Positions 1 to 28,937 of a DNA stretch of 33,324 nucleotides are shown piece by piece. The position numbers and the translations under genes are program-made. Below the pieces are notes generated by a model, which saw only the letters and a program-made list of their open reading frames with translations, was not told the origin of the DNA and ran no database searches. Positions within the stretch are counted from its first letter, which is position 1. Each line of letters begins with the position of its first letter. The DNA is from a virus. Lineage: Duplodnaviria; Heunggongvirae; Uroviricota; Caudoviricetes. The stretch lies in IMG/VR virus record IMGVR_UViG_2711768068_000019; one strand, 5' to 3'.

Positions 1-1362
1 ATGTTTAAACCGGAACTCCTTTCCCCGGCGGGAACGCTGAAAAATATGCGTTACGCTTTCGCTTATGGCGCAGATGCTGTTTATGCGGGCCAGCCGCGTT
101 ATTCCCTGCGTGTGCGCAACAACGAATTCAACCACGAAAATCTTCAGCTCGGCATCAATGAAGCCCACGCGCTGGGGAAAAAGTTTTATGTCGTGGTCAA
201 CATTGCACCGCACAACGCCAAGCTGAAAACCTTTATCCGTGACCTGAAACCGGTGGTGGAAATGGGGCCGGATGCGCTGATTATGTCCGATCCAGGGCTG
301 ATTATGCTGGTGCGTGAGCACTTCCCTGAAATGCCGATCCACCTTTCGGTGCAGGCTAACGCCGTGAACTGGGCGACGGTGAAATTCTGGCAGCAAATGG
401 GCCTGACCCGCGTGATCCTCTCTCGCGAGCTGTCGCTGGAAGAGATTGAAGAGATCCGCAATCAGGTGCCGGATATGGAGATCGAGATCTTCGTTCACGG
501 CGCGCTGTGCATGGCCTACTCCGGTCGCTGCCTGCTCTCTGGCTATATCAACAAGCGCGACCCGAACCAGGGCACCTGCACCAACGCCTGCCGCTGGGAG
601 TACAACGTCCAGGAAGGGAAAGAAGATGATGTTGGCAACATCGTACACAAGTACGAGCCGATTCCGGTGCAAAATGTTGAGCCGACGCTGGGTATCGGCG
701 CACCAACCGACAAAGTGTTTATGATCGAAGAGGCCCAGCGTCCGGGCGAGTATATGACCGCGTTTGAAGATGAGCACGGCACTTACATCATGAACTCGAA
801 AGATCTGCGCGCCATCGCCCATGTAGAACGCCTGACCAAAATGGGCGTGCATTCGCTGAAAATCGAAGGTCGTACCAAATCTTTCTACTATTGTGCACGC
901 ACCGCACAGGTTTACCGCAAAGCTATCGATGACGCCGCTGCGGGAAAACCGTTCGATACCAGCCTGCTGGAAACTCTGGAAGGTCTGGCGCATCGTGGCT
1001 ATACCGAAGGTTTCCTGCGTCGTCATACTCACGACGATTATCAGAACTACGAATACGGTTATTCAGTTTCTGACCGCCAGCAGTTTGTTGGTGAGTTTAC
1101 CGGTGAGCGCAAGGGGGACCTCGCGGCGGTAGCGGTGAAAAATAAATTCTCCGTTGGCGACAGCCTTGAGCTGATGACGCCGCAAGGCAACATTAATTTT
1201 ACCCTTGAGCACATGGAAAACGCCAAAGGCGAAGCTATGCCGATAGCACCAGGCGATGGTTATACTGTGTGGCTCCCGGTCCCGCAGGATCTTGAGCTCA
1301 ATTACGCGCTGCTGATGCGTAATTTCTCCGGGGAAACCACGCGTAATCCCCACGGTAAGTGA
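1..1362 (+). CDS. yegQ: Peptidase U32-family protein YegQ (host chromosomal gene)
   Basis: Full-length 453-aa ORF starting at ATG position 1 (MFKPELLSPAGTLKNMRYAF...); I recognise the translation as enterobacterial YegQ. Host-like GC content, outside the att repeat. Confidence 0.9.
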   Translation: MFKPELLSPAGTLKNMRYAFAYGADAVYAGQPRYSLRVRNNEFNHENLQLGINEAHALGKKFYVVVNIAPHNAKLKTFIRDLKPVVEMGPDALIMSDPGLIMLVREHFPEMPIHLSVQANAVNWATVKFWQQMGLTRVILSRELSLEEIEEIRNQVPDMEIEIFVHGALCMAYSGRCLLSGYINKRDPNQGTCTNACRWEYNVQEGKEDDVGNIVHKYEPIPVQNVEPTLGIGAPTDKVFMIEEAQRPGEYMTAFEDEHGTYIMNSKDLRAIAHVERLTKMGVHSLKIEGRTKSFYYCARTAQVYRKAIDDAAAGKPFDTSLLETLEGLAHRGYTEGFLRRHTHDDYQNYEYGYSVSDRQQFVGEFTGERKGDLAAVAVKNKFSVGDSLELMTPQGNINFTLEHMENAKGEAMPIAPGDGYTVWLPVPQDLELNYALLMRNFSGETTRNPHGK

Positions 1363-1506
1363 TTAATTTCGATTATTTTTCCCGGATGGAAAATTCTTAG
1401 AAACCGATCACATACAGCTGCATTTATTAAGGTTATCATCCGTTTCGCTGAAAAACATAACCCATAAAATGCTAGCTGTACCAGGAACCACCTCCTTAGC
1501 CTGTGT

Positions 1507-1534
1507 AATCTCCCTTACACGGGCTTATTTTTTA
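1507..1534. repeat. Prophage attachment site core, ogr-proximal junction (attR in P2 convention)
   Basis: aatctcccttacacgggcttatttttta is repeated exactly at 32822..32849; its reverse complement contains the 27-bp P2 att core AAAAAATAAGCCCGTGTAAGGGAGATT as I recall it. Confidence 0.85.
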
Positions 1535-1595
1535 CGTACAACAAATTGAAATAAAAGGATTTATTTCTGGTCACGTCCACACATTGACCACATCG

Positions 1596-3591: not shown

Positions 3592-6039
3592 TTAACCGTC
3601 ATGCATCATGCTGGCACGGGCGCGCGCACGTTTATCCCGCTCGTATTTTTCGAGCGCATCCTGTAACTGGCGGTCAAGCTGTGTCCCCGGCGCAGTACCA
3701 CCCGTCAGGCTGATGTGATATTCGTTTTTACTCTGGTCCACATAAGAGCGGCCAGCCGGTGCCGTAACCGGCTGATAAGCCTGATAACCTGCATAAGAGC
3801 TGGTCGCCGGAATATAACCACCGGTGCCATACGTGGCGGCATGAGTTCTGGCGGCGGTCTGGTCAAGTGTGTCTGACTCTTTGTTGATAACACCGAGTTT
3901 TTCCAGTACCCAGTCAATACCGCTGCGCAGTTTGTTGAACGCATTAAGCGGCAGCATCAGCGCGTCAGCCAGTGCCTGCCCGAACATGACCCCCGTGTCA
4001 CGGCAACGGTTCAGGGTGTCCTGTGTGGCTTTAACCGGGGCAATCAGGTTTTTAAACCACTGCCACGCGGCCTGTAACTTTTCACCCAGCCAGTCAAAAA
4101 CCGGTTTAAGTGGCGTGAACAGTTCCCCCACCGGCGCAAATGCCGCTTTCAGCCCTTCCACCACACCGCCAAAGAATGCGCTGACAGGCTCCCAGTATTT
4201 ACGGATAAGCAACGCCCCGGCGACAATGGCGGCCACCACGGCCACAACCGGCCAGCTAATCGCCCCGATGGCCGTCATAACAGCACTGCCAACCGTCGTG
4301 AAGATTGCCCCCATTGCGCCTGCTGCCGCGATGATGGCATTAATGCCGGTGATAACCGGCCAGGCTACAAGACCAATTGCACCGATGATGCCAATAAGCG
4401 CCAGTGCGCCACCGACAATAAGGCCGATGGTTGACGCCAGTGATTTGTTTTTCTGGATCCAGCCGTCGAGTTTTAACACATACTTTGTGGCCGTCTGCGT
4501 GAGATTACGCAGTGCGCCTTCCTGTTGGTCAAACAGGTCAGTCCCCACCGCCTCATAAGCAGACTGAAACTCCTTAAAGTCACCGCCCAGGTTGTCCTGC
4601 ATGATATTTACCAGCTCGGCGGTCTTCCCGTCTGAGGCTTTAAACGCAGCGGTCAGTTTGTCCAGCTTTCCGGTTGAGGCGGCAGTCATCAGCACGGCGG
4701 CGGCTGAGCTGGCCTCCTCCCCGAAAATAGTTTTCATGTATTCAGCCTGCTGGGCAGTACCGAGCCGGTTTTTCTCAAAACTGGCCTGCATTTCTTTCAG
4801 AATGGTAAATATTGGCCGGGTGTTTCCCTTGCTGTCTGAGGTTTTCACTCCAAGCTCTTTGAGTGCATCCCATGCTTTTCCCGTCGGTGCCTGCAGGCGG
4901 CTTAACACGGCACGGCTTCCCGTCCCCGCCATTGAGCCTGTGATTTTTGCATCATGCAGCGCCCCGACCATTGCGGCGGTTTCTTCAATGCTGACACCGG
5001 CATTTTTTGCCACAGGTGCGGCATAGGTCAGCGCATCGCTCATACCGTCAAAATCGGCGGCGGTTTTGTTCATCGTCATGGAGAGAACATCCCCGATATG
5101 AGCGACCTTATCGTTTGAAAGCTGAAAGGCGGATTTCATCCCCATCAGCAGGGCGGCGTTTTCTTCCATCGTGCGACGGTTCGCCAGCGCCATATTCAGC
5201 GTGACCGGCGTTGCCGCCTGAATGGCATCAACATCCCCACCGGCTTTCGCAATAATAATCTGCGCACCGGCTGCATCATCTGCCGAGGCGGCGGTATTGT
5301 CGCCAAGCTGACGCGCCTGTTTGCGGAGCGCGGCCATTTCGGCGGAGTCTTTTGCCACACCTAGCACGGCCTGCAATTCTGAGTTTTTCTGCGCAAACTC
5401 ATAACCGGGCATCAGCAGCTTAACACCGGCCATCGTTCCCGCCGCCGCAATCCCCACACCGGCAGCGCCCACTGAGGCCATATTTCCGGCCAGCTCCTTT
5501 CCGGCCTGATAACGCTGTTTTACTGCGTTAAGTTTTGCCTGTTGCGCACTGACACGCGCCAGCGCATCACGCTGACGGTTAAGCTGTGTGGTGGTTTCAC
5601 TGATACGGTTTTTCAGCCCTCGTTCATCATGCGCCAGATTACGGGTATTAATTCCCACAGCGGCCAGTTCCCGCTGCTGGCGCTTAACGGAATCCGTCAG
5701 ACGGTTATATTTCGCCTGTAAGTCCTCCGCCGCACGCTTTGCGGATTCCAGCACTTTCGCCTGAGCACGGGTCGGACGTTCGGTGTTTTTAAACTGTGTG
5801 GCAAGGGCTTCGGCTTCCTGCCGAGCCTTTTCAAGTGCATGACCAGTCACGGCGAGCTGCGCACTGGTCTTGCGAAATCCCTCAATACGGGACGCCTGAC
5901 CGTTCAGCTCGCGCAGTGATTTTTGTGTTTCCCGGATATCCCCCGACAGCGACTTGCTCGCTGTACGGATGGATTTAAACGGGCGGGATGCCTGGTCAAC
6001 AGCCCTGAGCAATACCTGTAATTTTACATTGTTACTCAT
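3592..6039 (-). CDS. T: Tail tape measure protein T
   Basis: 815-aa ORF with a coiled-coil N-terminal half and a Gly/Ala-rich hydrophobic central segment, typical of tape measure proteins; position and length match P2 gpT. Confidence 0.9.
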   Translation of the reverse strand: MSNNVKLQVLLRAVDQASRPFKSIRTASKSLSGDIRETQKSLRELNGQASRIEGFRKTSAQLAVTGHALEKARQEAEALATQFKNTERPTRAQAKVLESAKRAAEDLQAKYNRLTDSVKRQQRELAAVGINTRNLAHDERGLKNRISETTTQLNRQRDALARVSAQQAKLNAVKQRYQAGKELAGNMASVGAAGVGIAAAGTMAGVKLLMPGYEFAQKNSELQAVLGVAKDSAEMAALRKQARQLGDNTAASADDAAGAQIIIAKAGGDVDAIQAATPVTLNMALANRRTMEENAALLMGMKSAFQLSNDKVAHIGDVLSMTMNKTAADFDGMSDALTYAAPVAKNAGVSIEETAAMVGALHDAKITGSMAGTGSRAVLSRLQAPTGKAWDALKELGVKTSDSKGNTRPIFTILKEMQASFEKNRLGTAQQAEYMKTIFGEEASSAAAVLMTAASTGKLDKLTAAFKASDGKTAELVNIMQDNLGGDFKEFQSAYEAVGTDLFDQQEGALRNLTQTATKYVLKLDGWIQKNKSLASTIGLIVGGALALIGIIGAIGLVAWPVITGINAIIAAAGAMGAIFTTVGSAVMTAIGAISWPVVAVVAAIVAGALLIRKYWEPVSAFFGGVVEGLKAAFAPVGELFTPLKPVFDWLGEKLQAAWQWFKNLIAPVKATQDTLNRCRDTGVMFGQALADALMLPLNAFNKLRSGIDWVLEKLGVINKESDTLDQTAARTHAATYGTGGYIPATSSYAGYQAYQPVTAPAGRSYVDQSKNEYHISLTGGTAPGTQLDRQLQDALEKYERDKRARARASMMHDG

Positions 6040-6459
6040 TCGTGTTTCCGCTTCGCCGGAGCGCCTTTTCGCGCCATGTGATGAGTTCGGTCAGGCTCAT
6101 GGGATACAGTTCTGATGGCGGCCAGTGAAATATCACAGCCACATCTGCCATCAGGTCATCGACCGAGAGATTTTTCGGAAACGTCACTGCACCGAGTTCG
6201 GCGACAAAAAACCGACCACCTTACCGGCCAGCGCCACAAGGTCAGGCAGTTCCAGCGCGGCGACTTCCTGCTCGGTCAGCATCGGTGCCGTCATGCGCGG
6301 CAGCACCTTAATCAGTGCATCGACTTCAGAGTTCGCGACCGCAGCCAGACTGACACCGCGCAGCGTCCCGGCATTGGGTTTCATCAGCGTGACCTGTTCG
6401 ATAACCTGCTCACCACGCTTGACCGGATTGTCCAGGGTAATCACATTTTCTTTGTTCAT
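6032..6459 (-). CDS. E+E': Tail assembly chaperone E+E' (programmed -1 frameshift product, about 142 aa)
   Basis: Slippery heptamer G GTT TTT TG (minus strand, about 6205..6213) lies 7 codons before the E stop; a -1 shift opens a frame that runs to a TAA overlapping the T start codon (ATGAGTAA). Confidence 0.8.
6184..6459 (-). CDS. E: Tail assembly chaperone E (zero-frame product)
   Basis: 91-aa ORF, ATG start, ending ...GKVVGFLSPNSVQ; position between FII and T as in P2. Confidence 0.9.
   Translation of the reverse strand: MNKENVITLDNPVKRGEQVIEQVTLMKPNAGTLRGVSLAAVANSEVDALIKVLPRMTAPMLTEQEVAALELPDLVALAGKVVGFLSPNSVQ
6205..6213 (-). other. Programmed -1 ribosomal frameshift site (slippery sequence GGTTTTTTG)
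   Basis: Seen directly in the minus-strand sequence; encodes G-F-L in frame 0 and G-F-F after slippage. Confidence 0.75.
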
Positions 6460-6515: not shown

Positions 6516-7034
6516 TCACAGGCCGATATTGCGGCGGTGTTGCTCCAGCCGGTCGACGCCGTTCACCTTCTCAATCATGTTGATGGTGTCGATTTCGACC
6601 AGCTCCTTACCGTCCATCGTCAGCCGGAAATAGGTGCAGACCACGGAGATTTTCGACTCGGTGTCTTCTCCCTGTTTGCCCTCGCCGGTGTCGATTTCTT
6701 TCTGACGTCCACGCATGACCACCTCGACGGCCACCGTTTCGCCGGTATCGTCGCGCTGGTAAGAGCCTGCAAAACGAATCGGTACGGCATCCACACCGGT
6801 TGCGGCGTAAAGCTCCCAGATAACCGAATCCGGGAAGCCACCGAGCGACCACTCCATTGACAGCGCATCGTCATCAAGGCCGAGGTCTACCGGTGCGCTG
6901 CCGTTCATCCCCGCACCGCGATAGTTTTCGAGCTTACGGGTCAGTTTTGGCAGCGTGACGGACTTTGCGACGCCCTGATAGCTGTAGCCGTTCAGAAAGA
7001 CGTTCATTAACTTGAGTTTGCGCGGCATTGCCAT
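6516..7034 (-). CDS. FII: Tail tube protein FII
   Basis: 172-aa ORF, ATG start, recognised as P2 gpFII; synteny FI-FII-E. Confidence 0.9.
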   Translation of the reverse strand: MAMPRKLKLMNVFLNGYSYQGVAKSVTLPKLTRKLENYRGAGMNGSAPVDLGLDDDALSMEWSLGGFPDSVIWELYAATGVDAVPIRFAGSYQRDDTGETVAVEVVMRGRQKEIDTGEGKQGEDTESKISVVCTYFRLTMDGKELVEIDTINMIEKVNGVDRLEQHRRNIGL

Positions 7035-7046
7035 CGGTCAGGCTCC

Positions 7047-8237
7047 TTAATTGCTGTTAACCGAGGTGACCAGATTTGCCAGGTATTTATCGGTAATACG
7101 CTGGCGCAGGGTCAGATTTTCAAGAGGAGGCACCGGTGTATAGTCGTAGTCGATATACAGTTTTCCGGCCTTGAGGGTTTCCGCATCGTTGGATTCTTCG
7201 CTGAACCAGCAGGTCGCATCCACGATATAGCCGTTTGTTTTCAGCTCTCGGAATTTGGCATTGATGCCGTCAACGATGTCGCGAATCAGCGTTGCGGTGA
7301 TGGGCTTGTCCACCGCCCACATGTGCGCCTCAGCCATCGTATCGGCCAGCACCTGCGCGGTGCGGGTGTAGTTTTCAAAGAGGAACAGCGGGTCATCAGA
7401 GCAGGTACGGTTACCCCAGAAGCGGAAACCGTCGCGGCGAATCAGCGTTGTGACGCCTGACTCGTTAAGCAGGTCAGCATCAGTACCGGACTCCTGCAAA
7501 TCCCAGAATACAGAGGCGCTGATGCCGGTAACACCGTTCACCCCGACATTGGACAGCGTTTTATGCCAGCCCTGCTCCTGGTCGATTTTAGCGCGCAGCC
7601 CCAGCGCACGGGCGGTGGCATACGCGGTGGCGGTGGTACTGGTGACCGTATCCCATGCGAGGAAATCCGGCCAGATGACCATCAGCTCACGCTGGCTGAA
7701 ATTCTGACGGTAGGCTTTCACCTCGGAAATGGTTTTACAGCCCCATGCGCTGATATACCCGAAAGCGCGCAGCTTCTGACAGACGGATGCCAGTGCAACA
7801 GCCACCTCTTTGGTATCCAGTCCCGGCACACCGAGAATACGCGGTTTAACACCGGTTACCGACTCCGCCGCCAGCAGGGCTTTTAGTCCGGTGTACTGAC
7901 CGTTTTCGTCGGTGGTGCCGATGATATTGGAAACGGTCTGCGCGAGTTTCGTTTCCTCATTGTCGCCGGTGCCGTCTTCCACGCGCACGACAACGGTGAC
8001 CGGTTTTGACTGGTCAGCGATGGCCTGCAACGATGCCGCCAGCGTGCCTTTTTTACCGGCCTTTGCAATTGCGCTCTGCACATTGGTAATCAGCACCGGT
8101 TTATTGAGGGGGAAGGTTTCCGCATCTGCATCGCTGGCCGTGCAGACCATGCCGACAATGGCCGTGGATACGGTGGAAATGACGCGGGTGCCGTCGTTAA
8201 TCTCCAGCACCTGCACGCCGTGATGATAGTCACTCAT
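7047..8237 (-). CDS. FI: Contractile tail sheath protein FI
   Basis: 396-aa ORF, ATG start, recognised as P2 gpFI. Confidence 0.9.
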   Translation of the reverse strand: MSDYHHGVQVLEINDGTRVISTVSTAIVGMVCTASDADAETFPLNKPVLITNVQSAIAKAGKKGTLAASLQAIADQSKPVTVVVRVEDGTGDNEETKLAQTVSNIIGTTDENGQYTGLKALLAAESVTGVKPRILGVPGLDTKEVAVALASVCQKLRAFGYISAWGCKTISEVKAYRQNFSQRELMVIWPDFLAWDTVTSTTATAYATARALGLRAKIDQEQGWHKTLSNVGVNGVTGISASVFWDLQESGTDADLLNESGVTTLIRRDGFRFWGNRTCSDDPLFLFENYTRTAQVLADTMAEAHMWAVDKPITATLIRDIVDGINAKFRELKTNGYIVDATCWFSEESNDAETLKAGKLYIDYDYTPVPPLENLTLRQRITDKYLANLVTSVNSN

Positions 8238-8566: not shown

Positions 8567-9160
8567 TCAATTATGTAAATCTTTTGTTTTATGTTCTTTA
8601 GCGTGTTGTGATAATAAATAGCTATAGCGTTTAAGCAAAATATTAGAAAGATTAAGCTCATTCATGAAGTGTTCTTCTAATAAGTAACCATCAATATCAA
8701 CTTTAATATCATTACCACTTTTCATCTTCTGTAACGTAGATTTTACACGCTCCAGCAGGATGCTTTGCTCATGGTAATAGTCCATAAGAAGAGTAACATC
8801 CTCTTTATCAAGCTTACTTAATTCGCCGAAGTAGGATTTAAACACTTTATCAGTCTGGTTTAATGCAATCTGTAAGCGAGGTCCCCCTAATGATTTGACA
8901 TTAATGGCAAAAGGCTCGCCAACAAAATGCTCCGAATTTTCGTCAAAGCCAATATGTCTCGTTTTATCAAGAAAAGTGAGAGCGCGATGGTTATTAGCGA
9001 TTTCATATGCAAACATTGTTCTGATACTGTCTCTCTCAGCCTCCATGTTTATATCATCACGATGATTTGTATAAAATATATTTCCAACAAAGAGAACCAT
9101 AGCAAGAATCACTGAACTTGCCTCCCAGTTAATATTTTTTAATCGTCGCTTAGTAAACAT
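8567..9160 (-). CDS. Hypothetical membrane-anchored protein, AT-rich moron at the P2 Z/fun position
   Basis: 197-aa ORF with ATG start and a strong Shine-Dalgarno (AAGGTG, 4-nt spacer). One N-terminal hydrophobic helix (SSVILAMVLFVGNIFYT) followed by a soluble domain. Markedly lower GC than the flanking G and FI genes. No family recognised. Confidence 0.65.
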   Translation of the reverse strand: MFTKRRLKNINWEASSVILAMVLFVGNIFYTNHRDDINMEAERDSIRTMFAYEIANNHRALTFLDKTRHIGFDENSEHFVGEPFAINVKSLGGPRLQIALNQTDKVFKSYFGELSKLDKEDVTLLMDYYHEQSILLERVKSTLQKMKSGNDIKVDIDGYLLEEHFMNELNLSNILLKRYSYLLSQHAKEHKTKDLHN

Positions 9161-9381: not shown

Positions 9382-9909
9382 TTATTGCGGCATTTCCGGC
9401 CATTCAGGATTTGCAGGATCCACACGGCTGATCAGAACGCTGTAGCGTTCCCATGACTCCAGTCGTGCGCATTCCTCATCCGTCGCCATATTCAGCCTGA
9501 CAGCGCGTTCCAGTGGCTGAATAACGCTTTCCGCTTCGGAAAGTAACGCGGCCTTTTGTGATTCTGCCTGTTGTTGCTGTTCATCTGCCGTATAAATCCG
9601 TTTAACCACAGCACCATCCTTAAACATCCATTTACCTGAGTCGTCAGCACGTCGGTTGGAGGTAATATCAGGAACCTCAACAACGCTAAAACCTTCAGGA
9701 TTAAGCGTTGAAGCATCTCTGGTGATAGCGACAATAATATTATTTTCATCGTAAACAATCTTTATTGTGTCTGACTGAAAGTTCTTCACTTCCTCATACC
9801 AGTTTTTCCCGTCTTCAGTGTAAAGCCAGATGACTCCATGCTTCTTTGTTAACTCATACTGTTCCAGTGTTTTAGCGTTACCCGCTTTTATGTTCTTTAA
9901 GTGCATCAT
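9382..9909 (-). CDS. G: Tail fiber assembly protein G
   Basis: 175-aa ORF immediately downstream of the tail fiber gene H; recognised as a P2 gpG-type tail fiber assembly protein. Confidence 0.85.
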
Positions 9910-18872: not shown

Positions 18873-19946
18873 TTACGCTCCCGGCTCTGCGGTCGCTTTA
18901 GCCGGTGTGGAGAAATCACCGACCTTAATTTTTTCCACCAGACAACCGGCGGCGTAGTCCTCCACCACGTAATCAATGTTCATTGACTCGTAGTTCTCCA
19001 CGCGGTCGAGTTTCGGGTTTTCCTCAATCACGCGGCGATGGCTGTCATCCATGTAGTAGATGGACAGGTTTTCCAGCTTCGTGATGAGCATCGCATCCGC
19101 CGGGAAGTACGGGACGCGTACCGCTGGCAGGTTGCCGATGCGTTTCTGACTGATGATGACGTCAGCGGCCAGCATCTCGCTGTTGTCCTGCTCCTTGTTA
19201 ACGATGGGGAAATACTTGTCCGCCAGTAGCTGACGTCCCACAATCACCACAAGGTCAGGGTCTTCCTGATACCACGGCTCAATCAGGTTGTTGGTCGCAT
19301 CCATCACCAGTGCATCAAGGCTGGCATAATCACCGCCCTTACCCACGCGGATAACCTCAGAGGTGGTGTGCCCTTCCTCGTCAGTGACCTTGCTCATCAC
19401 GCGCGCCGGGGCTTCATTGCGGTATTTCTGCAGCCAGCCGACCGCCACATCCTGCAGCATCGGATTACTGCTGCGGTCAGAGGTTTCGGCACGCTTCACG
19501 CCGTTAAAACCGGCCATGATGAAATCAAGGGACTGGCGTTTGATAATGGCGTTACGGATACGGAGCTGGAAATCCTGATAACGCGCCCACAGGTCCAGCG
19601 TTTTGTAGCGGATATAAAAATCGAAGTTAATCTGGTCGCATTCGTACTTGTTAGACGCCAGCTTCGAGAAGTCCTTCGGCTGACGCTCGGTGCCACCGGC
19701 GGTGTCGGTGGTGCTGGCGATGGAGCCGGTGACACCGATGCCAATTTTTTCCCCTTTCATTTCGCTGACCGGCACAATGTTGATGCGGGTCAGAAAGTCA
19801 GAGGACTCCTGCATGGTGTTCATCAGGGTCTGGGTGACCGACGGTTCAACGGTGAATTTTTTCGACACATCACCGGCGTCGATGCCGTTCAGTTCGGCAA
19901 CACGGGACAGGTAAGCATTAAATTTAAAGCGGGTTTCCTGGCGCAT
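18873..19946 (-). CDS. N: Major capsid protein N
   Basis: 357-aa ORF recognised as P2 gpN. Confidence 0.9.
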   Translation of the reverse strand: MRQETRFKFNAYLSRVAELNGIDAGDVSKKFTVEPSVTQTLMNTMQESSDFLTRINIVPVSEMKGEKIGIGVTGSIASTTDTAGGTERQPKDFSKLASNKYECDQINFDFYIRYKTLDLWARYQDFQLRIRNAIIKRQSLDFIMAGFNGVKRAETSDRSSNPMLQDVAVGWLQKYRNEAPARVMSKVTDEEGHTTSEVIRVGKGGDYASLDALVMDATNNLIEPWYQEDPDLVVIVGRQLLADKYFPIVNKEQDNSEMLAADVIISQKRIGNLPAVRVPYFPADAMLITKLENLSIYYMDDSHRRVIEENPKLDRVENYESMNIDYVVEDYAAGCLVEKIKVGDFSTPAKATAEPGA

Positions 19947-20004
19947 AGTTTTTCCTGAAATTAAGGGTTAATCGTGAAGGTTTTCCCGGACTGACTGACG
20001 CCGG

Positions 20005-20859
20005 TCAGCAGTTCGTCAGCAGGGCATCACCGCCACCGCCGGTGGCTTTGCTGCGGCGCTGCTGGGTCAGACTTTCGGTGTGGTCGAGACTGTTTTTCAG
20101 GCGGGTGAATGCCTGACTGGTTTCATCCGCCCTGTCAGTCACATCCTGCTTAAGTGCGGAAAAGGCGGTTTCCATCTCAGCAAGGCGCTGCTCAGTGGCG
20201 CTCAGTTTTTCCTGCACATGCTCAGCGACAGCGGTCACCGCTTCATGCACGTCATTCAGACGGGCGTCATCGCTGGCCTGTTTGCGGCCAAAAATGGATT
20301 TCACCTTTTCGGTCAGGGCGGTGAACACGGTTTCAGGCAGGTCTTCAAATTCCAGCTCAACAGGCGTTGCCACTGAAATCAGGTTTTCAGGGCTTAATTT
20401 GAAGCGGTTCAGAGGGTTGTGTTTTGCCGTGCGGCAGAATTCCAGGTATTCCGTGCCGAGGCTTGCCGGGTCATCGGTGACGGCCAGACCCACCAGATAA
20501 CATTTGCCGGTATTGGCAAAGTTCGGCTGAATTTCCATTGAGGTATAGACCTTCTGCGCGGCCTTGTTCATCGCGATAAGGTCATCGGTCGGGGTGATTT
20601 TCGCAAACAGCGCCCATTTGCCTTTCAGCGCCGAATCATCGTCAATCTTTTCGGCCTTCAGTTCGGCCACATCGCCATAACGCTTAAAAATACCGTCAGG
20701 CAGGATGCCGCGCAGATGTTCCAGGTTAATGCGGCAACCATAGACACGCGGGTCAAAGGTTTCGGCCATTTCCTGAATATCCTGCGCACTGATGACACGC
20801 CCGTCACAGGTATCACCCTCAACGCCGATACGAAAGAATTTTGAGACTTTTTTTGCCAT
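20005..20859 (-). CDS. O: Capsid scaffolding protein O
   Basis: 284-aa product from the ATG at 20857-20859 (MAKKVSKFFRIGVEG...), matching the P2 gpO length. Confidence 0.9.
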   Translation of the reverse strand: MAKKVSKFFRIGVEGDTCDGRVISAQDIQEMAETFDPRVYGCRINLEHLRGILPDGIFKRYGDVAELKAEKIDDDSALKGKWALFAKITPTDDLIAMNKAAQKVYTSMEIQPNFANTGKCYLVGLAVTDDPASLGTEYLEFCRTAKHNPLNRFKLSPENLISVATPVELEFEDLPETVFTALTEKVKSIFGRKQASDDARLNDVHEAVTAVAEHVQEKLSATEQRLAEMETAFSALKQDVTDRADETSQAFTRLKNSLDHTESLTQQRRSKATGGGGDALLTNC

Positions 20860-21032
20860 TGTCAGGAGTCCTGAATAGTGATTAGAGGAGTCACATGTCG
20901 GCATCAGTTTCCCGACGATGCGCATCCTCCGCCATCAGTCCCGGATGGCTTATCACTGACACAACAGCACCTTAGCGAATCGCGGGGCGCGACTCAGTAG
21001 CCTTGCCGTGTATTCATCACGGCGAGGTATTC
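20860..21032. promoter_or_regulatory. Divergent late promoter region between O and P
   Basis: Intergenic region between divergently transcribed O (-) and P (+). Only imperfect matches to the Ogr-site dyad TGT-N12-ACA were found (GTG-N12-ACA about 20878..20895; TGG-N12-ACA about 20946..20963). Placement is by synteny with P2. Confidence 0.35.
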
Positions 21033-22805
21033 ATGACCATCACCACAGACACCACTCTTTTACACGACCCGCGTCGTCAGGCGGCGCTGCTGTACTGGCA
21101 GGGGTTTTCCGTGCCGCAGATTGCCGCCATGTTGCAGATGAAACGCCCGACGGTGCAGAGCTGGAAACAGCGCGACGGCTGGGACAGCGTTGCCCCCATC
21201 AGCCGTGTCGAAATGAGTCTGGAAGCGCGGCTGACCCAGCTCATCATCAAACCGCAGAAAACCGGCGGTGACTTCAAGGAAATTGACCTTCTGGGACGCC
21301 AGATTGAACGACTGGCACGGGTAAACCGTTACAGTCAGACCGGCAACGAGGCAGACCTTAATCCGAACGTCGCTAACCGCAACAAAGGCGGGCGTCGCAA
21401 ACCGAAAAAGAATTTTTTCAGTGACGAGGCCATCGAAAAGCTGGAGCAGATTTTCTTTGAGCAGTCTTTCGACTATCAGTTGCACTGGTATCGCGCCGGG
21501 CTTGAGCACCGCATCCGCGATATCCTGAAATCCCGCCAGATTGGCGCGACGTTTTATTTTTCCCGCGAGGCGCTGCTGCGCGCCCTGAAAACCGGTCATA
21601 ACCAGATTTTTCTGTCGGCCAGTAAAACGCAGGCGTATGTGTTCCGCGAATACATCATCGCCTTTGCCCGGCTGGTTGACGTTGACCTGACCGGTGACCC
21701 GATTGTCCTGGGCAATAACGGCGCAAAACTGATTTTTCTCGGCACCAACTCCAACACCGCGCAGAGCCATAACGGCGACCTGTACGTCGACGAGATTTTC
21801 TGGATCCCGAATTTTCAGGTACTGCGTAAGGTGGCATCAGGTATGGCCTCACAGAGTCACCTGCGCTCGACCTATTTCTCCACCCCGTCCACGCTGGCGC
21901 ACGACGCCTACCCGTTCTGGTCGGGTGAACTGTTCAACCGGGGACGCGCCAGCGCCGCCGAACGCGTGGAAATCGATGTCAGTCATAACGCCCTTGCCGG
22001 TGGGCTTCTCTGTGCGGACGGCCAGTGGCGGCAGATTGTCACCATTGAGGACGCCCTGAAAGGTGGCTGCACGCTGTTCGACATTGAGCAGCTTAAACGC
22101 GAAAACAGCGCCGACGATTTTAAAAACCTGTTCATGTGTGAATTTGTTGACGACAAGGCGTCGGTGTTCCCGTTCGAGGAGCTGCAACGCTGCATGGTCG
22201 ACACGCTGGAAGAATGGGAAGACTATGCACCCTTTGCCGCAAATCCGTTCGGTTCCCGCCCGGTATGGATTGGTTACGACCCGTCACACCGTGGCGACAG
22301 CGCCGGATGCGTGGTGCTGGCACCGCCGGTGGTGGCCGGTGGCAAATTCAGAATACTTGAGCGTCACCAGTGGAAAGGCATGGACTTTGCCACTCAGGCT
22401 GAATCCATCCGCAAACTCACCGAAAAATATAACGTCGAATACATCGGTATTGATGCCACCGGCCTCGGTGTCGGCGTGTTCCAGCTCGTGCGCTCGTTCT
22501 ATCCCGCCGCGCGCGATATCCGCTACACGCCGGAAATGAAAACTGCAATGGTGCTCAAGGCAAAAGACGTTATCCGCCGTGGCTGTCTGGAATATGACGT
22601 CAGCGCCACCGATATCACCAGCTCGTTCATGGCTATCCGCAAGACCATGACCAGCAGCGGACGCAGCGCCACCTATGAGGCCAGCCGCAGCGAGGAAGCC
22701 AGCCACGCCGACCTCGCCTGGGCGACCATGCACGCCCTGTTAAATGAGCCACTCACCGCCGGTATCAGCACTCCGCTGACATCCACCATTCTGGAGTTTT
22801 ACTGA
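21033..22805 (+). CDS. P: Terminase ATPase (large) subunit P
   Basis: 590-aa product from the ATG at 21033 (MTITTDTTLLHDPRRQAALLYWQGF...), preceded by an AGG Shine-Dalgarno-like motif; the track ORF begins 10 codons upstream at a TTG. Confidence 0.9.
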   Translation: MTITTDTTLLHDPRRQAALLYWQGFSVPQIAAMLQMKRPTVQSWKQRDGWDSVAPISRVEMSLEARLTQLIIKPQKTGGDFKEIDLLGRQIERLARVNRYSQTGNEADLNPNVANRNKGGRRKPKKNFFSDEAIEKLEQIFFEQSFDYQLHWYRAGLEHRIRDILKSRQIGATFYFSREALLRALKTGHNQIFLSASKTQAYVFREYIIAFARLVDVDLTGDPIVLGNNGAKLIFLGTNSNTAQSHNGDLYVDEIFWIPNFQVLRKVASGMASQSHLRSTYFSTPSTLAHDAYPFWSGELFNRGRASAAERVEIDVSHNALAGGLLCADGQWRQIVTIEDALKGGCTLFDIEQLKRENSADDFKNLFMCEFVDDKASVFPFEELQRCMVDTLEEWEDYAPFAANPFGSRPVWIGYDPSHRGDSAGCVVLAPPVVAGGKFRILERHQWKGMDFATQAESIRKLTEKYNVEYIGIDATGLGVGVFQLVRSFYPAARDIRYTPEMKTAMVLKAKDVIRRGCLEYDVSATDITSSFMAIRKTMTSSGRSATYEASRSEEASHADLAWATMHALLNEPLTAGISTPLTSTILEFY

Positions 22806-24168: not shown

Positions 24169-24708
24169 TCAATCATCATGATGAGAGAACCTAGCATTTA
24201 CTATTCTTGAGTGAAGATTGTTTGCAAATGATAAGTTGCTTAAAATAACACTAAACACACACTTTATTTGTAACCAGCACATAAAATAAACAAAGGTGAT
24301 TCCAATCATTCTAATAAGATCAGAATACACCACTGAACTCGATAGCACAGAGCCTATTGATTTAAACAGATAAACAAACAAAATCGAAAGCATTACTACT
24401 GCTGAAGTAATTACAACGTAAATTAGCTTTTCAATTCGAGGTGCATCTTTCGTATTCTTTATGTAATCAACATCATCATTGACAATGCTTGCAATTGCAT
24501 TCGGATATAAAAAACCAATCCATAATCCAACTATGGTAAAAATTGCAGCAGATATGTTTTGCAAAACACCCAGTATATCTTTTATATCACTATAGTTAAC
24601 ATAAGCTTTCAGCCAATAGGAGGCCACAGCAATTAGAAATAGAATTAACAAATTCCATTTCCATTGTATTATCAATGCCTTTAAATCCTTACTTGTTTGA
24701 GGTGACAT
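24169..24708 (-). CDS. Hypothetical small integral membrane protein (4 predicted transmembrane helices), second gene of an AT-rich cargo operon
   Basis: 179-aa ORF. Its ATG directly follows the upstream TAA (TAAATG) and is preceded by GGAGG within the upstream gene's 3' end. Four hydrophobic stretches of about 17-23 residues. About 30% GC by eye. Confidence 0.7.
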   Translation of the reverse strand: MSPQTSKDLKALIIQWKWNLLILFLIAVASYWLKAYVNYSDIKDILGVLQNISAAIFTIVGLWIGFLYPNAIASIVNDDVDYIKNTKDAPRIEKLIYVVITSAVVMLSILFVYLFKSIGSVLSSSVVYSDLIRMIGITFVYFMCWLQIKCVFSVILSNLSFANNLHSRIVNARFSHHDD

Positions 24709-25836
24709 TTATGCCTCCGCCGTTTTTAAAGATTTTTCTTCCACCTCTTCATTATAAAGGATTGTTTGGAGTAAATCATCACGAACAGCCTTTATTTCAT
24801 GAAGGAGTTTTTCTGGAGAGAAATGCTCATCTCCGGTAGAATCGCTGACAATTAATGCAGTTCTCGCCATATATTTTTTTAACCATAATGGGCGAGATGA
24901 ATCTTTAAGAACAAAGCCAACATCAACCCAGTCAACATCATCTACATTTCTATCCAATAGTTGTTTTATCTCCTCTTCCGAAGGAGCACCATCTACTCGA
25001 ACCTCAATTTTTTTAGGTTTTGTAAACTTGGTTTGTTCTGTTCCCAAGAAATCCGATAGTACATTACTCACCAGACGTAATAACGGTTGCCGGGTATCCT
25101 CAACTTTTGCGACCGTAGTATCACGAATAATTGTCTGAACAATTTTATCTCGTACATCAAGAATATTCGTCCCTGGTTTATTAACCTTCGTCACTTCAGC
25201 CTTAAATTTAAAAACGCAATTACACTTGCGTCCATTTTCATCTACATGCTTGAAAATTGTTTTAGAAATAAGAATGTCATCTTCCGAACATGAAGAACGA
25301 GCTCTAGTAAATGAGGTAGTATCCTTTTCCCTACCAAAATCACCGTGATTTACTACAAAATTAAAAATATAATTGCTTAACCTCGGTGTATCTGCACCTG
25401 AATGAGGAAATATAATGGATGCAATCTTGTTATATTCAGGAATTATCCAATAATAACATGGCTCAACCCAAATATAGTCTTTTCCATTCGTTTCTGTCTT
25501 TACTGTATCATTTTCTGTAGCACCAACAGGTGCGTTTTTTTTAACAGCGTGCAAACGTCCCTTCGCGGAACCTAATGCGCGATACATTACCATCACCCGA
25601 TCTTTTGTATCGGGATCGACAGCCACTCCTCGTGAGTAAGTTCTGGCTCTTAGCGGATGAGTTCCCGTATCCCACGGAATTGACTCCTCAACGCTTTTGT
25701 CATCAAGCCAAGCCTGCAACGCGTCAAAGATCTCATCAAGTGTTCCGAATTTATGCTCTAATTCTTCTGCGTTTTTCTTCAGTCTGTAAAAACCACAAGC
25801 CTTGATATCAAAGAACGTAACGATTCCAGTTTCCAT
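24709..25836 (-). CDS. Hypothetical protein (375 aa), first gene of an AT-rich cargo operon at the P2 tin/old position
   Basis: ORF with the ATG at 25834-25836 (METGIVTFFDIKACGFYRLKK...); the track ORF begins 21 codons upstream at a TTG. No transmembrane segment and no Walker A motif. Low GC. No family recognised. Confidence 0.7.
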   Translation of the reverse strand: METGIVTFFDIKACGFYRLKKNAEELEHKFGTLDEIFDALQAWLDDKSVEESIPWDTGTHPLRARTYSRGVAVDPDTKDRVMVMYRALGSAKGRLHAVKKNAPVGATENDTVKTETNGKDYIWVEPCYYWIIPEYNKIASIIFPHSGADTPRLSNYIFNFVVNHGDFGREKDTTSFTRARSSCSEDDILISKTIFKHVDENGRKCNCVFKFKAEVTKVNKPGTNILDVRDKIVQTIIRDTTVAKVEDTRQPLLRLVSNVLSDFLGTEQTKFTKPKKIEVRVDGAPSEEEIKQLLDRNVDDVDWVDVGFVLKDSSRPLWLKKYMARTALIVSDSTGDEHFSPEKLLHEIKAVRDDLLQTILYNEEVEEKSLKTAEA

Positions 25837-25993
25837 CACTTTCCCTACGAAGCGGTAAAAAATCCCCAGAACAATAAGGGATCTATGCAAAAGGTTCAAT
25901 GCTCAAGATTATCACCTAGTATGCTAACGCCTCCGCAGATGAGTTGTTCACCCCGCCAACCCTGAAAACAAGTTTCACGACTGGCGGCGCTCT

Positions 25994-26200: not shown

Positions 26201-26655
26201 TATCCAAGCCACCCATTTTGCTTTGCACGCTCCACCTGTTCATCTGAATAGTTCCATGCTCCATCCGTGGCAACCATTGCCCCGCCAGACATCCCCGTCT
26301 CTGGTTCATACATAACAGCAAGGCCGAGCTGATGCATAATTTCATGATTAATTCTGAATACCAGACCACGCTCACTAAGTTCTTTCCAGTTCACAATCTC
26401 ATATGCGCCTGTATTAAGCAGCTCAATACTTAGCAAGACATAATCTACCAGCCAGTCTGACAGGTCAGTAACATCTGTTATCCGGGCTTCAACCTTTCGC
26501 CCCGTGTACACACCCTGCACCCATTCATGCAAAATCAACGTGTCCCCGCGCTCATAATTACGGTCATTTTTCCGAAACTCTGCGCGTTTCTTTCCTTCCA
26601 GCACAAGGTCGAAATATTTTGCGTGCAGCTTTACCTCGTGAATTTTTGCCATCAT
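26200..26655 (-). CDS. ASCH/PUA-like (DUF3850-like) domain protein with a C-terminal extension containing an HExxH motif
   Basis: 151-aa product from the ATG overlapping the A stop (ATGA), preceded by GGAG. The N-terminus (MAKIHEVKLHAKYFDLVLEGKKRAEFRKNDRNYERGDTLILHEW...) resembles ASCH/DUF3850 proteins as I recall them. The C-terminal region contains HEIMH. Confidence 0.7.
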   Translation of the reverse strand: MMAKIHEVKLHAKYFDLVLEGKKRAEFRKNDRNYERGDTLILHEWVQGVYTGRKVEARITDVTDLSDWLVDYVLLSIELLNTGAYEIVNWKELSERGLVFRINHEIMHQLGLAVMYEPETGMSGGAMVATDGAWNYSDEQVERAKQNGWLG

Positions 26656-28937
26656 GTCCACTCCATTACTGTTGAGAATCCCGGCCACTCATCAGCGACC
26701 GGATACGTGAACTTTTTCCCGTCATAATTTACGGTTGCCCCACGCGCCAGCGCCTCAAGCTCCCATCGCTGCGGCCTGATACCGTTCTGAGCAAGGTCAA
26801 CGCGGATACGGGTAATTTGCATTCGTTCCGACCGGGTCATTCTGGCCGATGGCGCTATTTCATGCGGTTTTAACGGGCTTCCGTTTCTTTGCTGACGACT
26901 TGGCGTTCTCCGACCGTGTTTTAATGCACCTCTGAGCGCCCTCACGACCTCCGGGTCACTCCATTCGATAACACCGTCATCAACCAGATTAAGCACTGCT
27001 GCGGCGTGCTCAGAAGGTGTGGGAGCCGGTAACGAAGTATCACCGCCGGTAAGCTTTCCACAGTTATTGACAGGACTCCGAGGCGCGGCGATGCCGCTTT
27101 TTAAAGTCAAAGGCTCAACGACCGGAACTTTCGGCACAATGCGCCAGTCCGTGGTTCTGGTGATATGAATATGACGCGCGCCGAGATGCGGTGCGTAAAT
27201 GCCGACCACTCTCTCGACTTCTTCCTCGTACTCGTTAACGTCATCCGACGGGCTACGGGCGACTCTGACAGTCTGACAATCGCGCGGAACATTTGCCCCA
27301 CCCTGCGCGCTGATATACAACGCAAAATCACCACTGTCTGCGGCGGCGCGTGCAGCCTCGACGCGCTCGTCAAACTCATCAGCAATGCTGACGCCGCGAG
27401 GCAATTTGCGTAATTCACGGTAAGCCCCCATTGTCGGCAGACCAACCGTTTTAAATTGCGGAATGCGCCACGTTGACGCCCATGCGGTAACAGCCGCTGC
27501 AGTGTCTTTCAGCGGCCTGCCGGTGTCGTTATCGAGCTGACCATCCAGTGCATAGCCGTCGATGTTTTTTGAAATGTATTTCGCGATATATCCCGCAGCA
27601 CCGCCCCGGTTAAGGTGTTTTGCCTGAAAACGGTTTCGCGCGGCTCCTCTTTCGTCACCATCCTCTTTGAGCGCATAGCGACGCATGATTTCGATAATCT
27701 GGTTACGCTGGCGTGGATTACAAAAAAGCATCATATGCCAGTGCGGCGTTCCGTCGTGGTGTGGCTCGACGACTCGCAAACCGTAGACCTGTAAATCATT
27801 ATCCTTGAATGCCGTGCGCATCAGGCTCCAGATACGGCAGAGATAACGCTGCGCATCCTTTGGATTAAATGCCTCATCGTTCCAGCCGTGATTAAGCTGC
27901 ACGGTTTTACTTTCGCCTTTTCCGACCTGACGTGTCGGGTGATACTTTGACGGCGCGGTCAGCGTGATAAACATCCCCACATCACCCTCTGCAGCGGCGT
28001 AACGCTCAATACCGGCAATGGTGTTCATCAGCTCCATCCGGCGAATTTCAGGATTAGAAATACTGCCCATCACCTTACTGATAAGGTCGATGCGCTCGCC
28101 GGTTTCCCTGTTTTCGAGGTCACACGATTTAAGAAATTCCAGATTTGCCTGGCGGCGCGCACGCACATCACGAATGGCGTGTTTACTGGCATAAGGAGAA
28201 CGGTCTTTATTGACCTCCCCGACAGCTATCAGTAACGCCTCATGCCAGCGCATACGCTGTCCTTTAAGCTGATGAGTCCACCACTCATCGTTAAACAGGC
28301 GGGCAATGGCAGAATATGCCTGCCTCGTGGTCATCTGTCCTTTACGGTATTTTTTCCAGTAGAGAGGGGAAATATTGAAAGCACGTGCAGCGCCAGCAAC
28401 ATGACCATAGAGGTGAGCCTGCGCCTTATCCGTAAACAGCGATTCTTTTTCGCCATGCGCATCCACCCAGGCATCGCAGAGTTCCTCATACATCATGAAA
28501 AGCTGCGATGAGATACGGGCGGCAAACTTTTTCAGCTCCTTGTCATTCATTCCAGGCAGGCGCGCATAGTGGTCACGCTCTGCCAGAAACAGCAACGACG
28601 CGTCGGTGTTCATTTCATGGCGCTGATTCACACGCTCAATACGCGGCCATAAACGACGCTGAAAAGTGGATGTGAGGAAATAAAACCCGTGTACCGGACT
28701 TTTATTGCGCCGGATGTAGTCATAGCGTGAAGTAAACAGCGAGCGCAAAAAGTAAGGCAGGCGGTTAATCGTGGATAAAACACCTTGCACCTGACGCATC
28801 TCGTCACGTGTAAGAGGTCTTTCTCGCCCAACGGCCTCGCGTGGCGCGTTCCATGCATAAGCACCGGTAAACGTCTCACCGGTGCCTGCGGCAAATGCTG
28901 ACGGAGGGACAAAACGCCCGGAGGCTTTAACGGCCAT
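26652..28937 (-). CDS. A: Replication initiation protein A (rolling-circle HUH endonuclease)
   Basis: 761-aa product from the ATG at 28935-28937 (MAVKASGRFVPPSAF...); the track ORF begins at a TTG 14 codons upstream. Contains a HUH-type motif (PHWHMMLF) and a candidate catalytic Tyr region (YIAKYISKN). Confidence 0.9.
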   Translation of the reverse strand: MAVKASGRFVPPSAFAAGTGETFTGAYAWNAPREAVGRERPLTRDEMRQVQGVLSTINRLPYFLRSLFTSRYDYIRRNKSPVHGFYFLTSTFQRRLWPRIERVNQRHEMNTDASLLFLAERDHYARLPGMNDKELKKFAARISSQLFMMYEELCDAWVDAHGEKESLFTDKAQAHLYGHVAGAARAFNISPLYWKKYRKGQMTTRQAYSAIARLFNDEWWTHQLKGQRMRWHEALLIAVGEVNKDRSPYASKHAIRDVRARRQANLEFLKSCDLENRETGERIDLISKVMGSISNPEIRRMELMNTIAGIERYAAAEGDVGMFITLTAPSKYHPTRQVGKGESKTVQLNHGWNDEAFNPKDAQRYLCRIWSLMRTAFKDNDLQVYGLRVVEPHHDGTPHWHMMLFCNPRQRNQIIEIMRRYALKEDGDERGAARNRFQAKHLNRGGAAGYIAKYISKNIDGYALDGQLDNDTGRPLKDTAAAVTAWASTWRIPQFKTVGLPTMGAYRELRKLPRGVSIADEFDERVEAARAAADSGDFALYISAQGGANVPRDCQTVRVARSPSDDVNEYEEEVERVVGIYAPHLGARHIHITRTTDWRIVPKVPVVEPLTLKSGIAAPRSPVNNCGKLTGGDTSLPAPTPSEHAAAVLNLVDDGVIEWSDPEVVRALRGALKHGRRTPSRQQRNGSPLKPHEIAPSARMTRSERMQITRIRVDLAQNGIRPQRWELEALARGATVNYDGKKFTYPVADEWPGFSTVMEWT

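What the first reader, a model, noticed from the sequence alone, without database searches (positions are those of the whole stretch)
6032..6459. Programmed -1 ribosomal frameshift producing E+E'
The slippery heptamer GGTTTTTTG sits 7 codons before the E stop. Shifting -1 there opens a frame that continues for about 58 more codons and ends at a TAA overlapping the tape-measure gene start (ATGAGTAA). This is the same recoding arrangement as the two tail assembly chaperones upstream of the tape measure gene in P2 and lambda (G/GT). It is established biology, listed here because automated annotation routinely misses it.
Basis: partly seen in the sequence, partly recalled or inferred. Interest (0 to 1): 0.4.

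Follow-up and report, generated by a model that had tools for sequence, protein, structure and literature searches.

The report
P2 tail chaperone E/E+E' frameshift
This is the well-known programmed -1 ribosomal frameshift that lets a P2-type prophage make two tail-assembly chaperones (E and E+E') from one start codon; it is real but ordinary, and gene-calling pipelines usually split it into two genes.

Summary
Gene E is 6459..6184 (91 aa). It contains the in-frame slippery heptamer T_TTT_TTG at 6211..6205, with the TTG seven codons before the E stop. A -1 shift there opens 57 more sense codons. These end at TAA 6034..6032, inside ATGAGTAA, the start of the tape-measure gene T (6039..3592).

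The conceptual fusion is 142 aa and differs from phage P2 gpE+E' by one residue (S29N). The DNA is 419/428 identical to the P2 reference, where the -1 frameshift is annotated at the same nucleotide. The fusion matches Pfam Phage_TAC_7 (E part) and Phage_P2_GpE (E' part).

In 12 divergent Peduoviridae and 80 viral contigs, the E' homologue is always in the -1 frame. An X_XXY_YYZ heptamer always lies in the overlap, and it is TTTTTTG in 86 of 92. Its synonymous sites are frozen while neighbouring ones vary.

A downstream hairpin that looked promising has no covariation support.

Geometry alone is not significant; the case rests on homology and conservation.

Verdict: already known biology (Christie 2002; Xu 2004), correctly interpreted. 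PGAP and most GenBank records do annotate E' as a separate small ORF or omit it.

The parts
6184..6459 (-). Gene E (tail assembly chaperone, 91 aa), the zero-frame product
   Evidence: ORF list and translation. Pfam PF10109 Phage_TAC_7, residues 7-85, 47 bits against a cutoff of 25. One substitution (S29N) relative to P2 gpE.
6205..6211 (-). Slippery heptamer T_TTT_TTG (P-site codon TTT, A-site codon TTG in the E frame)
   Evidence: Same position as the annotated P2 frameshift site. TTTTTTG in 8 of 12 divergent relatives and 78 of 80 viral loci. The codons GGT, TTT and TTG/TTA never vary synonymously in the 83 related loci tabulated, while neighbouring codons do.
6032..6205 (-). E' extension in the -1 frame: 57 sense codons (VAELGAVTFPKNL...RSGNTNE) plus TAA
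   Evidence: Pfam PF06528 Phage_P2_GpE, fusion residues 104-139, 76 bits against a cutoff of 23. Both nucleotide differences from P2 in this stretch are third-position and synonymous in the E' frame. Substitutions against relatives L003 and L004 are biased to the third position.
6032..6459 (-). Whole E+E' recoded gene (142-aa fusion, made by re-reading G6205)
   Evidence: tblastn of the fusion finds 418 phage records, and 401 of them cover at least 80% of it in one place; every listed full-length row shows two pieces.
6221..6223 (-). TAA in the -1 frame. It closes that frame upstream and confines any productive shift to the 37 nt from 6220 to 6184.
   Evidence: The 37-nt overlap is shared by P2, L004, L005 and 55 of 80 viral loci.
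3592..6039 (-). Tape-measure gene T (815 aa). Its ATG (6039..6037) overlaps the E' stop in ATGAGTAA.
   Evidence: Pfam PF10145 PhageMin_Tail, E = 2e-45. TGAGTRR (the ATGAGTRR overlap) is present in 78 of 80 related loci.
6516..7034 (-). Tail tube gene FII, immediately upstream of E
   Evidence: Pfam PF04985 Phage_tube, E = 2e-60.

Best explanation
The window carries a P2-type (Peduovirus) prophage. In its FI-FII-E-T-U-D tail operon (minus strand), ribosomes translating gene E mostly stop at TGA 6186..6184 and release the 91-aa chaperone gpE.

A minority slip back one nucleotide on T_TTT_TTG (6211..6205). In this slip, P-site tRNA-Phe moves from UUU to UUU, and A-site tRNA-Leu moves from UUG to UUU and keeps its first two base pairs. 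The next codon read is then GTC, starting at G6205. Translation continues for 57 codons to TAA 6034..6032 and yields the 142-aa gpE+E'.

By analogy with lambda gpG/gpGT, the shared E domain is expected to coat the tape-measure protein T. The rarer E' domain is expected to recruit the tail tube protein, so the fixed slip frequency would set the E:E+E' ratio needed for tail assembly.

Shown here: the sequence anatomy, near-identity to P2, domain homology of both frames, family-wide conservation of the -1 relationship and of the heptamer, and purifying selection on the E' frame.

Inferred from literature or memory: that the fusion is actually made (about 10% in P2), that it is essential, and the chaperone roles.

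No stimulatory RNA element is supported, so the heptamer appears to act alone.
For: - Anatomy: an in-frame heptamer, a 37-nt permissive window holding one X_XXY_YYZ site, and 57 open -1 codons ending in ATGAGTAA.
- Match to P2: 419/428 nt and 141/142 aa identical to P2 E+E'. The P2 reference annotates the join and the frameshift site one base after the heptamer's G.
- Domains: PF10109 on residues 7-85 and PF06528 on residues 104-139, both above gathering score, with Phage_tube upstream and a tape measure downstream.
- Spread in phages: 401 of 418 phage records cover at least 80% of the fusion in one place; every listed full-length row shows two pieces.
- Divergent relatives: in 12 of 12 Peduoviridae (E identity 32-76%) E' is in the -1 frame. 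A canonical heptamer lies in the overlap in all: TTTTTTG in 8, and TTTTTTT, AAATTTT, GGGAAAG and GGGTTTT/TTTTTTC in one each.
- Viral contigs: 80 of 80 loci have an in-frame heptamer (78 TTTTTTG), and 78 of 80 keep the ATGAGTRR stop/start overlap.
- Synonymous constraint: GGT-TTT-TTG/A is frozen in all 83 related loci tabulated, while the nearby Gly and Val/Ile codons vary freely.
- Protein conservation: the -1 frame is conserved from the first residues after the slip (FL-VAE.G) and has invariant residues A105, D106, F111, E125, W129, A133 and R136.
- Substitution pattern: changes in E' fall mainly at third positions.
- Literature: PMC3091744 reports TTTTTTG, 91 aa and 142 aa, and no hairpin in P2. 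PMC5009743 gives P2 frameshift efficiency as 2-3 fold that of lambda.
Against: - The prophage could be defective elsewhere.
- Geometry alone is not statistically unusual.
- Sequence analysis cannot separate tandem ribosomal slippage (junction ..GFLVAE..) from P-site-only slippage or addition of one U by RNA polymerase (both give ..GFFVAE..).
- The primary P2 paper (Christie et al. 2002) could not be read here. The roughly 10% efficiency and the essentiality of E' rest on my memory of it and on secondary citations.
Confidence: 0.96

Rival explanations
1. E' is an independent small gene that starts at GTG 6187..6185 and gives a free 51-aa protein, as PGAP and many GenBank records annotate it. 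No recoding is involved.
For: A GTG-started 51-aa ORF, 6187..6032, exists. RefSeq annotates it as a separate 'GpE family phage tail protein', and PHROGs has stand-alone families for it.
Against: - The GTG is not conserved. The equivalent codon is TTA, ATA and GTA in the three nearest divergent relatives (sequences, translations).
- Conservation of the -1 frame begins directly after the heptamer, upstream of that GTG.
- Synonymous sites of the heptamer are frozen, which an independent start would not require.
- The -1 relationship and an overlap heptamer are kept in 92 of 92 relatives.
- The P2 reference and the literature describe a fusion.
Confidence: 0.02
2. The same E+E' fusion is made, but by transcriptional slippage. 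RNA polymerase would add one U on the T6 run, rather than the ribosome slipping.
For: A run of six T is present (6211..6206), and most relatives keep a T6-T7 run. Sequence alone cannot exclude a small contribution.
Against: - Homologues with the same architecture use G_GGA_AAG (Mannheimia PHL101) and A_AAT_TTT (E. coli phage 503458). These have no long homopolymer yet fit the ribosomal X_XXY_YYZ rule.
- The final G (or A) of the heptamer and its reading-frame register are conserved. That matters for tRNA re-pairing, not for polymerase stuttering.
- From established knowledge, six residues is short for efficient bacterial RNA polymerase slippage.
- The literature treats the P2 event as a translational frameshift.
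Confidence: 0.03

Closest known systems
Bacteriophage P2 genes E and E+E' (NC_001895 P2p26/P2p25; Christie et al. 2002, J Bacteriol 184:6522)
   Same: The coordinates have the same structure: 276-nt E, 428-nt E+E' span and 2448-nt T. The heptamer TTTTTTG sits at the same position and the stop/start overlap ATGAGTAA is the same. Identity is 419/428 nt and 141/142 aa.
   Different: One conservative substitution (S29N) and eight silent changes. The copy here is a prophage in a bacterial chromosome, next to a U32 peptidase gene, not the laboratory P2 genome.
Phage lambda G/GT tail assembly chaperones (Levin 1993; Xu, Hendrix, Duda 2004, 2013, 2014)
   Same: Two overlapping ORFs lie between the major tail (tube) gene and the tape-measure gene, joined by a -1 shift near the end of the first ORF. 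The short product is abundant and the long product is rare.
   Different: Lambda uses a different heptamer, G_GGA_AAG. By my recollection of the literature, the proteins share no detectable sequence similarity; this was not tested here. P2 is a contractile-tail phage. P2 efficiency is reported as 2-3 fold higher than lambda.
E. coli dnaX tau/gamma -1 frameshift
   Same: A bacterial -1 tandem slip on an X_XXY_YYZ heptamer gives two products that share an N-terminus.
   Different: From established knowledge, dnaX relies on an upstream Shine-Dalgarno-like element about 10 nt away and a downstream hairpin about 6 nt away. Here the only notable hairpin lies 51-93 nt downstream and has no covariation support. 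The SD-like AAGGTGG sits only 4 nt upstream and was not tested.

Membership tests
P2-type gpE / gpE+E' tail assembly chaperone pair | The zero-frame product belongs to the E-type tail assembly chaperone family (Pfam PF10109 Phage_TAC_7). | tested here: met
   residues 7-85, E = 2.6e-12, 47 bits against a gathering score of 25. PHROG 103, E = 4e-43.
P2-type gpE / gpE+E' tail assembly chaperone pair | The -1 frame extension carries the GpE domain (Pfam PF06528 Phage_P2_GpE). | tested here: met
   fusion residues 104-139, E = 1.2e-21, 76 bits against a gathering score of 23.
P2-type gpE / gpE+E' tail assembly chaperone pair | The slippery heptamer T_TTT_TTG is in register with the E frame, inside the E/E' overlap. 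| tested here: met
   heptamer at 6211..6205, the only X_XXY_YYZ site in the 37-nt overlap. Its position is identical to the annotated P2 site.
P2-type gpE / gpE+E' tail assembly chaperone pair | The pair lies between the tail tube gene (FII) and the tape-measure gene (T), with the E' stop overlapping the T start. | tested here: met
   FII 7034..6516, E/E' 6459..6032, T 6039..3592, with ATGAGTAA at the junction.
P2-type gpE / gpE+E' tail assembly chaperone pair | E' has no conserved initiation codon of its own and is conserved as an extension of E. | tested here: met
   the GTG at 6187 is replaced by TTA, ATA and GTA in near relatives, and protein conservation starts right after the heptamer.
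P2-type gpE / gpE+E' tail assembly chaperone pair | The fusion protein is actually produced (about 10% of E translation in P2) and is essential for tail assembly. | not testable with these tools
   This requires a protein or reporter experiment. It is known for P2 from Christie 2002, which I could not read here and know only through citations.
Lambda G/GT-class conserved tail-chaperone frameshift (Xu, Hendrix, Duda 2004) | [quoted passage not shown] | tested here: met
Lambda G/GT-class conserved tail-chaperone frameshift (Xu, Hendrix, Duda 2004) | Sequence or structural homology to lambda gpG/gpT. | not tested
   No comparison with lambda proteins was run, and no solved structure matches the fusion. 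The class is defined by synteny and recoding rather than by sequence.

The most novel reading that the evidence does not exclude
The most novel reading not fully excluded is that frameshift efficiency in P2-type phages is tuned by local mRNA features that have not been described.

- Downstream hairpin: a thermodynamically strong hairpin (CUGAUGGCRG...CCGCCAUCAG, window 6154..6112) lies 51-93 nt downstream of the slip site. It folds better than synonymous-codon resamples in several lineages.
- Upstream SD-like element: AAGGUGG (6222..6216) lies 4 nt upstream of the heptamer, and its Val codon GTG never varies in the 83 related loci tabulated.

Against this reading, the hairpin shows zero compensatory changes and less covariation than shuffled controls. 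Its arms encode the invariant LMAD and WPPSE motifs. The literature reports no stimulatory structure in P2.
Probability: 0.05. Interest if true: 0.3.

Novelty: already known. Interest (0 to 1): 0.07.

Why it matters
The finding has practical value only. It is a correct manual annotation of a recoded gene that pipelines split. PGAP labels the E' half as a separate 51-aa 'GpE family phage tail protein'. The segment, or a 95-100% identical copy, is present in 1583 of 5426 complete E. coli genomes, so the mis-annotation is very widespread. Joining E and E' gives the true 142-aa essential tail-assembly protein. That matters for judging whether a P2-type prophage is intact and for proteomics databases. 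It adds no new biology.

Tried and rejected
1. Downstream stimulatory RNA.
- The 60 nt after the heptamer fold no better than shuffles (z = -0.3).
- The first 100 nt give z = -3.2 because of a 10-bp-stem hairpin at +51..+93.
- That hairpin is nearly invariant in 5 relatives and more stable than synonymous-codon resamples in some lineages, but not all.
- Distant homologues do not keep the same structure.
- On 55 distinct sequences there are no compensatory changes in the stem, and the covariation score is below the shuffled mean, with 485 of 500 shuffles at least as high.
- I rejected it as a supported element. Its arms are explained by the conserved LMAD and WPPSE codons.

2. A tiny hairpin starting 1-2 nt after the heptamer (CGCCG/CGGYG) has broken pairs and no covariation. 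It is also too close to the slip site to act as a stimulator.

3. Statistical significance from geometry alone was rejected. There are 16 TTTTTTG sites against about 10 expected, and five other look-alike geometries in ORFs that overlap longer ORFs.

4. NCBIfam has no model hit for E, E' or the fusion, and the PDB has no sequence relative.

5. The primary paper, Christie et al. 2002 (PMID 12426340, PMC135442), is not held in the library.

6. My first automated frame picker failed on GC-rich relatives. I replaced it with tblastn-anchored frames.
Full report
**What is in the sequence.**
- The finding's coordinates (6032..6459) are given as plus-strand numbers, but every feature is on the minus strand.
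- Reading the reverse complement, an ATG at 6459 opens a 91-codon ORF that ends at TGA 6186..6184.
- Near its end the E-frame codons are GGT TTT TTG TCG CCG AAC TCG GTG CAG TGA. The canonical X_XXY_YYZ heptamer is therefore T_TTT_TTG at 6211..6205.
- Re-reading G6205 in the -1 frame gives GTC GCC GAA and onward: 57 sense codons (VAELGAVTFPKNLSVDDLMADVAVIFHWPPSELYPMSLTELITWREKALRRSGNTNE), then TAA 6034..6032.
- That TAA sits inside ATGAGTAA. Its ATG (6039..6037) starts an 815-aa ORF, 6039..3592.
- The -1 frame is closed upstream by TAA 6223..6221. A productive shift can therefore happen only within 37 nt (6220..6184), and those 37 nt contain exactly one X_XXY_YYZ site.

**Is it more than chance?** Not by geometry alone.
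- TTTTTTG occurs 16 times in the window against 9.8 ± 3.1 expected.
- A scan of all stop-to-stop ORFs of at least 90 codons found five other cases of a heptamer near an ORF end followed by a long -1 frame. Each lies in an ORF that overlaps a longer ORF.
- Homology and conservation are what make this site real.

**Identity.**
- The 701-nt region is 98.6-98.9% identical to dozens of Peduovirus (P2-like) genomes. Most of the window aligns to P2-like phages from about position 1547 onward. A host U32 peptidase gene lies at 1..1362, so this is a P2-type prophage.
- The P2 reference NC_001895 annotates E (19430..19705), a two-piece CDS E+E' (19430..19857, 'shares amino terminus with gpE; -1 frameshift; essential tail protein'), a frameshift site at 19685 and T (19850..22297).
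- These spans equal those in the window. The two 428-nt segments differ at 9 positions. The conceptual fusion proteins differ at one residue (S29N). The two differences within the E' extension are third-position and silent in the E' frame.
- Pfam places Phage_TAC_7 (PF10109) on fusion residues 7-85 and Phage_P2_GpE (PF06528) on residues 104-139, both above gathering score. The upstream gene is Phage_tube (FII) and the downstream gene is a PhageMin_Tail tape measure.
- The literature agrees. In P2 the -1 shift occurs at TTTTTTG and yields 91-aa E and 142-aa E+E' (PMC3091744). Lambda G/GT is the paradigm, and P2 frameshifting is 2-3 fold more efficient (PMC5009743).

**Independent comparative test.**
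- tblastn of the fusion against 50,697 phage records found 418 records. In 401 of them one place covers at least 80% of the fusion; every listed full-length row shows two pieces.
- I fetched 12 divergent examples: Klebsiella, Salmonella, Yersinia, Burkholderia, Ralstonia, Pseudomonas phiCTX, Serratia, Mannheimia, Aeromonas, an E. coli Xuanwuvirus and a 'Microcystis' phage. E identity ranged from 32 to 76%.
- I anchored frames with tblastn. In 12 of 12 the E' homologue is -1 relative to E, and a canonical heptamer lies in the overlap in E-frame register. Eight have TTTTTTG. The others have T_TTT_TTT, A_AAT_TTT, G_GGA_AAG and G_GGT_TTT/T_TTT_TTC.
- Heptamers without a long homopolymer argue for ribosomal rather than transcriptional slippage.
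- An alignment of the 13 conceptual fusions has invariant residues on both sides of the junction. Conservation of the -1 frame begins immediately after the heptamer (FL-VAE.G).
- In 80 further loci from viral contigs (69-100% identity), 80 of 80 have an in-frame heptamer (78 TTTTTTG, 2 GGGTTTT/TTTTTTA). TGAGTRR, the T-start/E'-stop overlap, is kept in 78 of 80.
- Synonymous sites of GGT-TTT-TTG/A never vary in the 83 related loci tabulated, while the nearby Gly codon (GGT/GGC/GGG/GGA) and Val/Ile codon (GTC/GTT/GTG/GTA, ATC/ATT) vary freely. That is direct evidence of selection on the nucleotide sequence of the slip site.
- Substitutions against the 70-80% relatives are biased to the third position in the E' frame.

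**Rival readings.**
- Independent initiation at GTG 6187 is what PGAP annotates. It is contradicted because the GTG is replaced by TTA, ATA and GTA in the nearest divergent relatives, and by the conservation upstream of it.
- Transcriptional slippage cannot be excluded by sequence alone. It is disfavoured by the non-homopolymeric heptamers in homologues and by the conserved register. A junction peptide would settle it: GFLV for tandem ribosomal slippage, GFFV for the alternatives.

**Stimulatory elements.**
- The first 60 nt downstream are unremarkable (z = -0.3). The first 100 nt give z = -3.2 because of a hairpin at +51..+93, window 6154..6112.
- That hairpin is nearly invariant in close relatives. 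It is more stable than synonymous resamples in several lineages, but not all.
- Across 55 distinct sequences its stem has no compensatory change. Third-position variation breaks pairs freely. The covariation score is below the shuffled mean. Distant homologues lack the same fold.
- Its arms encode the conserved LMAD and WPPSE motifs, which explains the conservation. This agrees with the literature statement that P2 has no stimulatory structure.
- An SD-like AAGGTGG lies 4 nt upstream and has an invariant GTG codon. I noted it but did not test it.

**Annotation claim.**
- PGAP gives separate 'phage tail assembly protein' and 51-aa 'GpE family phage tail protein' CDSs.
- LR595870 labels the E ORF 'GpE+E'' and calls E' hypothetical.
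- None of the 12 divergent records joins the frames.
- PHROGs keeps separate families for the halves.
- The segment occurs in 1583 of 5426 complete E. coli genomes.

**Verdict.** This is the textbook P2 E/E+E' programmed -1 frameshift in a near-identical prophage copy. It is already known and of low interest beyond correct annotation.

Noticed in passing
window 24169..25899 (-): Two adjacent low-GC ORFs (179 aa at 24169..24708 and 396 aa at 24709..25899) sit in a region of 0.37-0.40 GC, against about 0.56 for the prophage. They match the PADLOC candidate anti-phage system PDC-M18: subunit B at E = 3e-16 and subunit A at E = 4e-38. They have no Pfam domain above threshold. They lie just below the large ORF 26652..28979; from my memory of the P2 map this is the old/tin cargo slot, but I assigned no P2 gene names in this part of the window.
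   Followed up: partly
window 8567..9160 (-): A 197-aa ORF lies in a low-GC stretch (about 0.42) between the large ORF 7047..8237 and the 175-aa ORF 9382..9909. Those should be the tail sheath gene FI and the tail fibre assembly gene G by P2 gene order, so this would be the slot that holds Z/fun in P2. It has no Pfam or PADLOC hit and is probably an uncharacterised moron.
   Followed up: partly
window 6112..6154 (-): A 10-bp-stem hairpin (CUGAUGGCAG...CCGCCAUCAG) lies inside the E' coding region, 51-93 nt 3' of the slip site. It is thermodynamically strong (z = -3.2 for the 100-nt context). It has no compensatory changes in 55 distinct relatives, and its arms encode the conserved LMAD and WPPSE motifs.
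   Followed up: yes
window 6216..6222 (-): A Shine-Dalgarno-like AAGGTGG lies 4 nt upstream of the slippery heptamer. Its Val codon GTG (6219..6217) is invariant in all 83 related loci tabulated, although adjacent synonymous sites vary. This spacing is much shorter than the roughly 10 nt of the dnaX stimulator. Its significance is unknown.
   Followed up: no
window 1..1547 (+): The left end of the window is host chromosome. A U32-family peptidase gene lies at 1..1362 (Pfam PF01136 and PF16325). Homology to P2-like phages begins at about 1547, so the prophage junction (attL or attR) lies at roughly 1400-1550. The integrase-like ORF is at 31729..32742.
   Followed up: no
L011 (PP438421.1, 'Microcystis phage Mae-JY29') 30100..31300: A phage deposited as infecting the cyanobacterium Microcystis carries a P2-type E/E' pair. 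Identity is 43% for E and 51% for E', and the slip site is T_TTT_TTT. The surrounding sequence is GC-rich and resembles a proteobacterial genome, so the host assignment looks odd.
   Followed up: no
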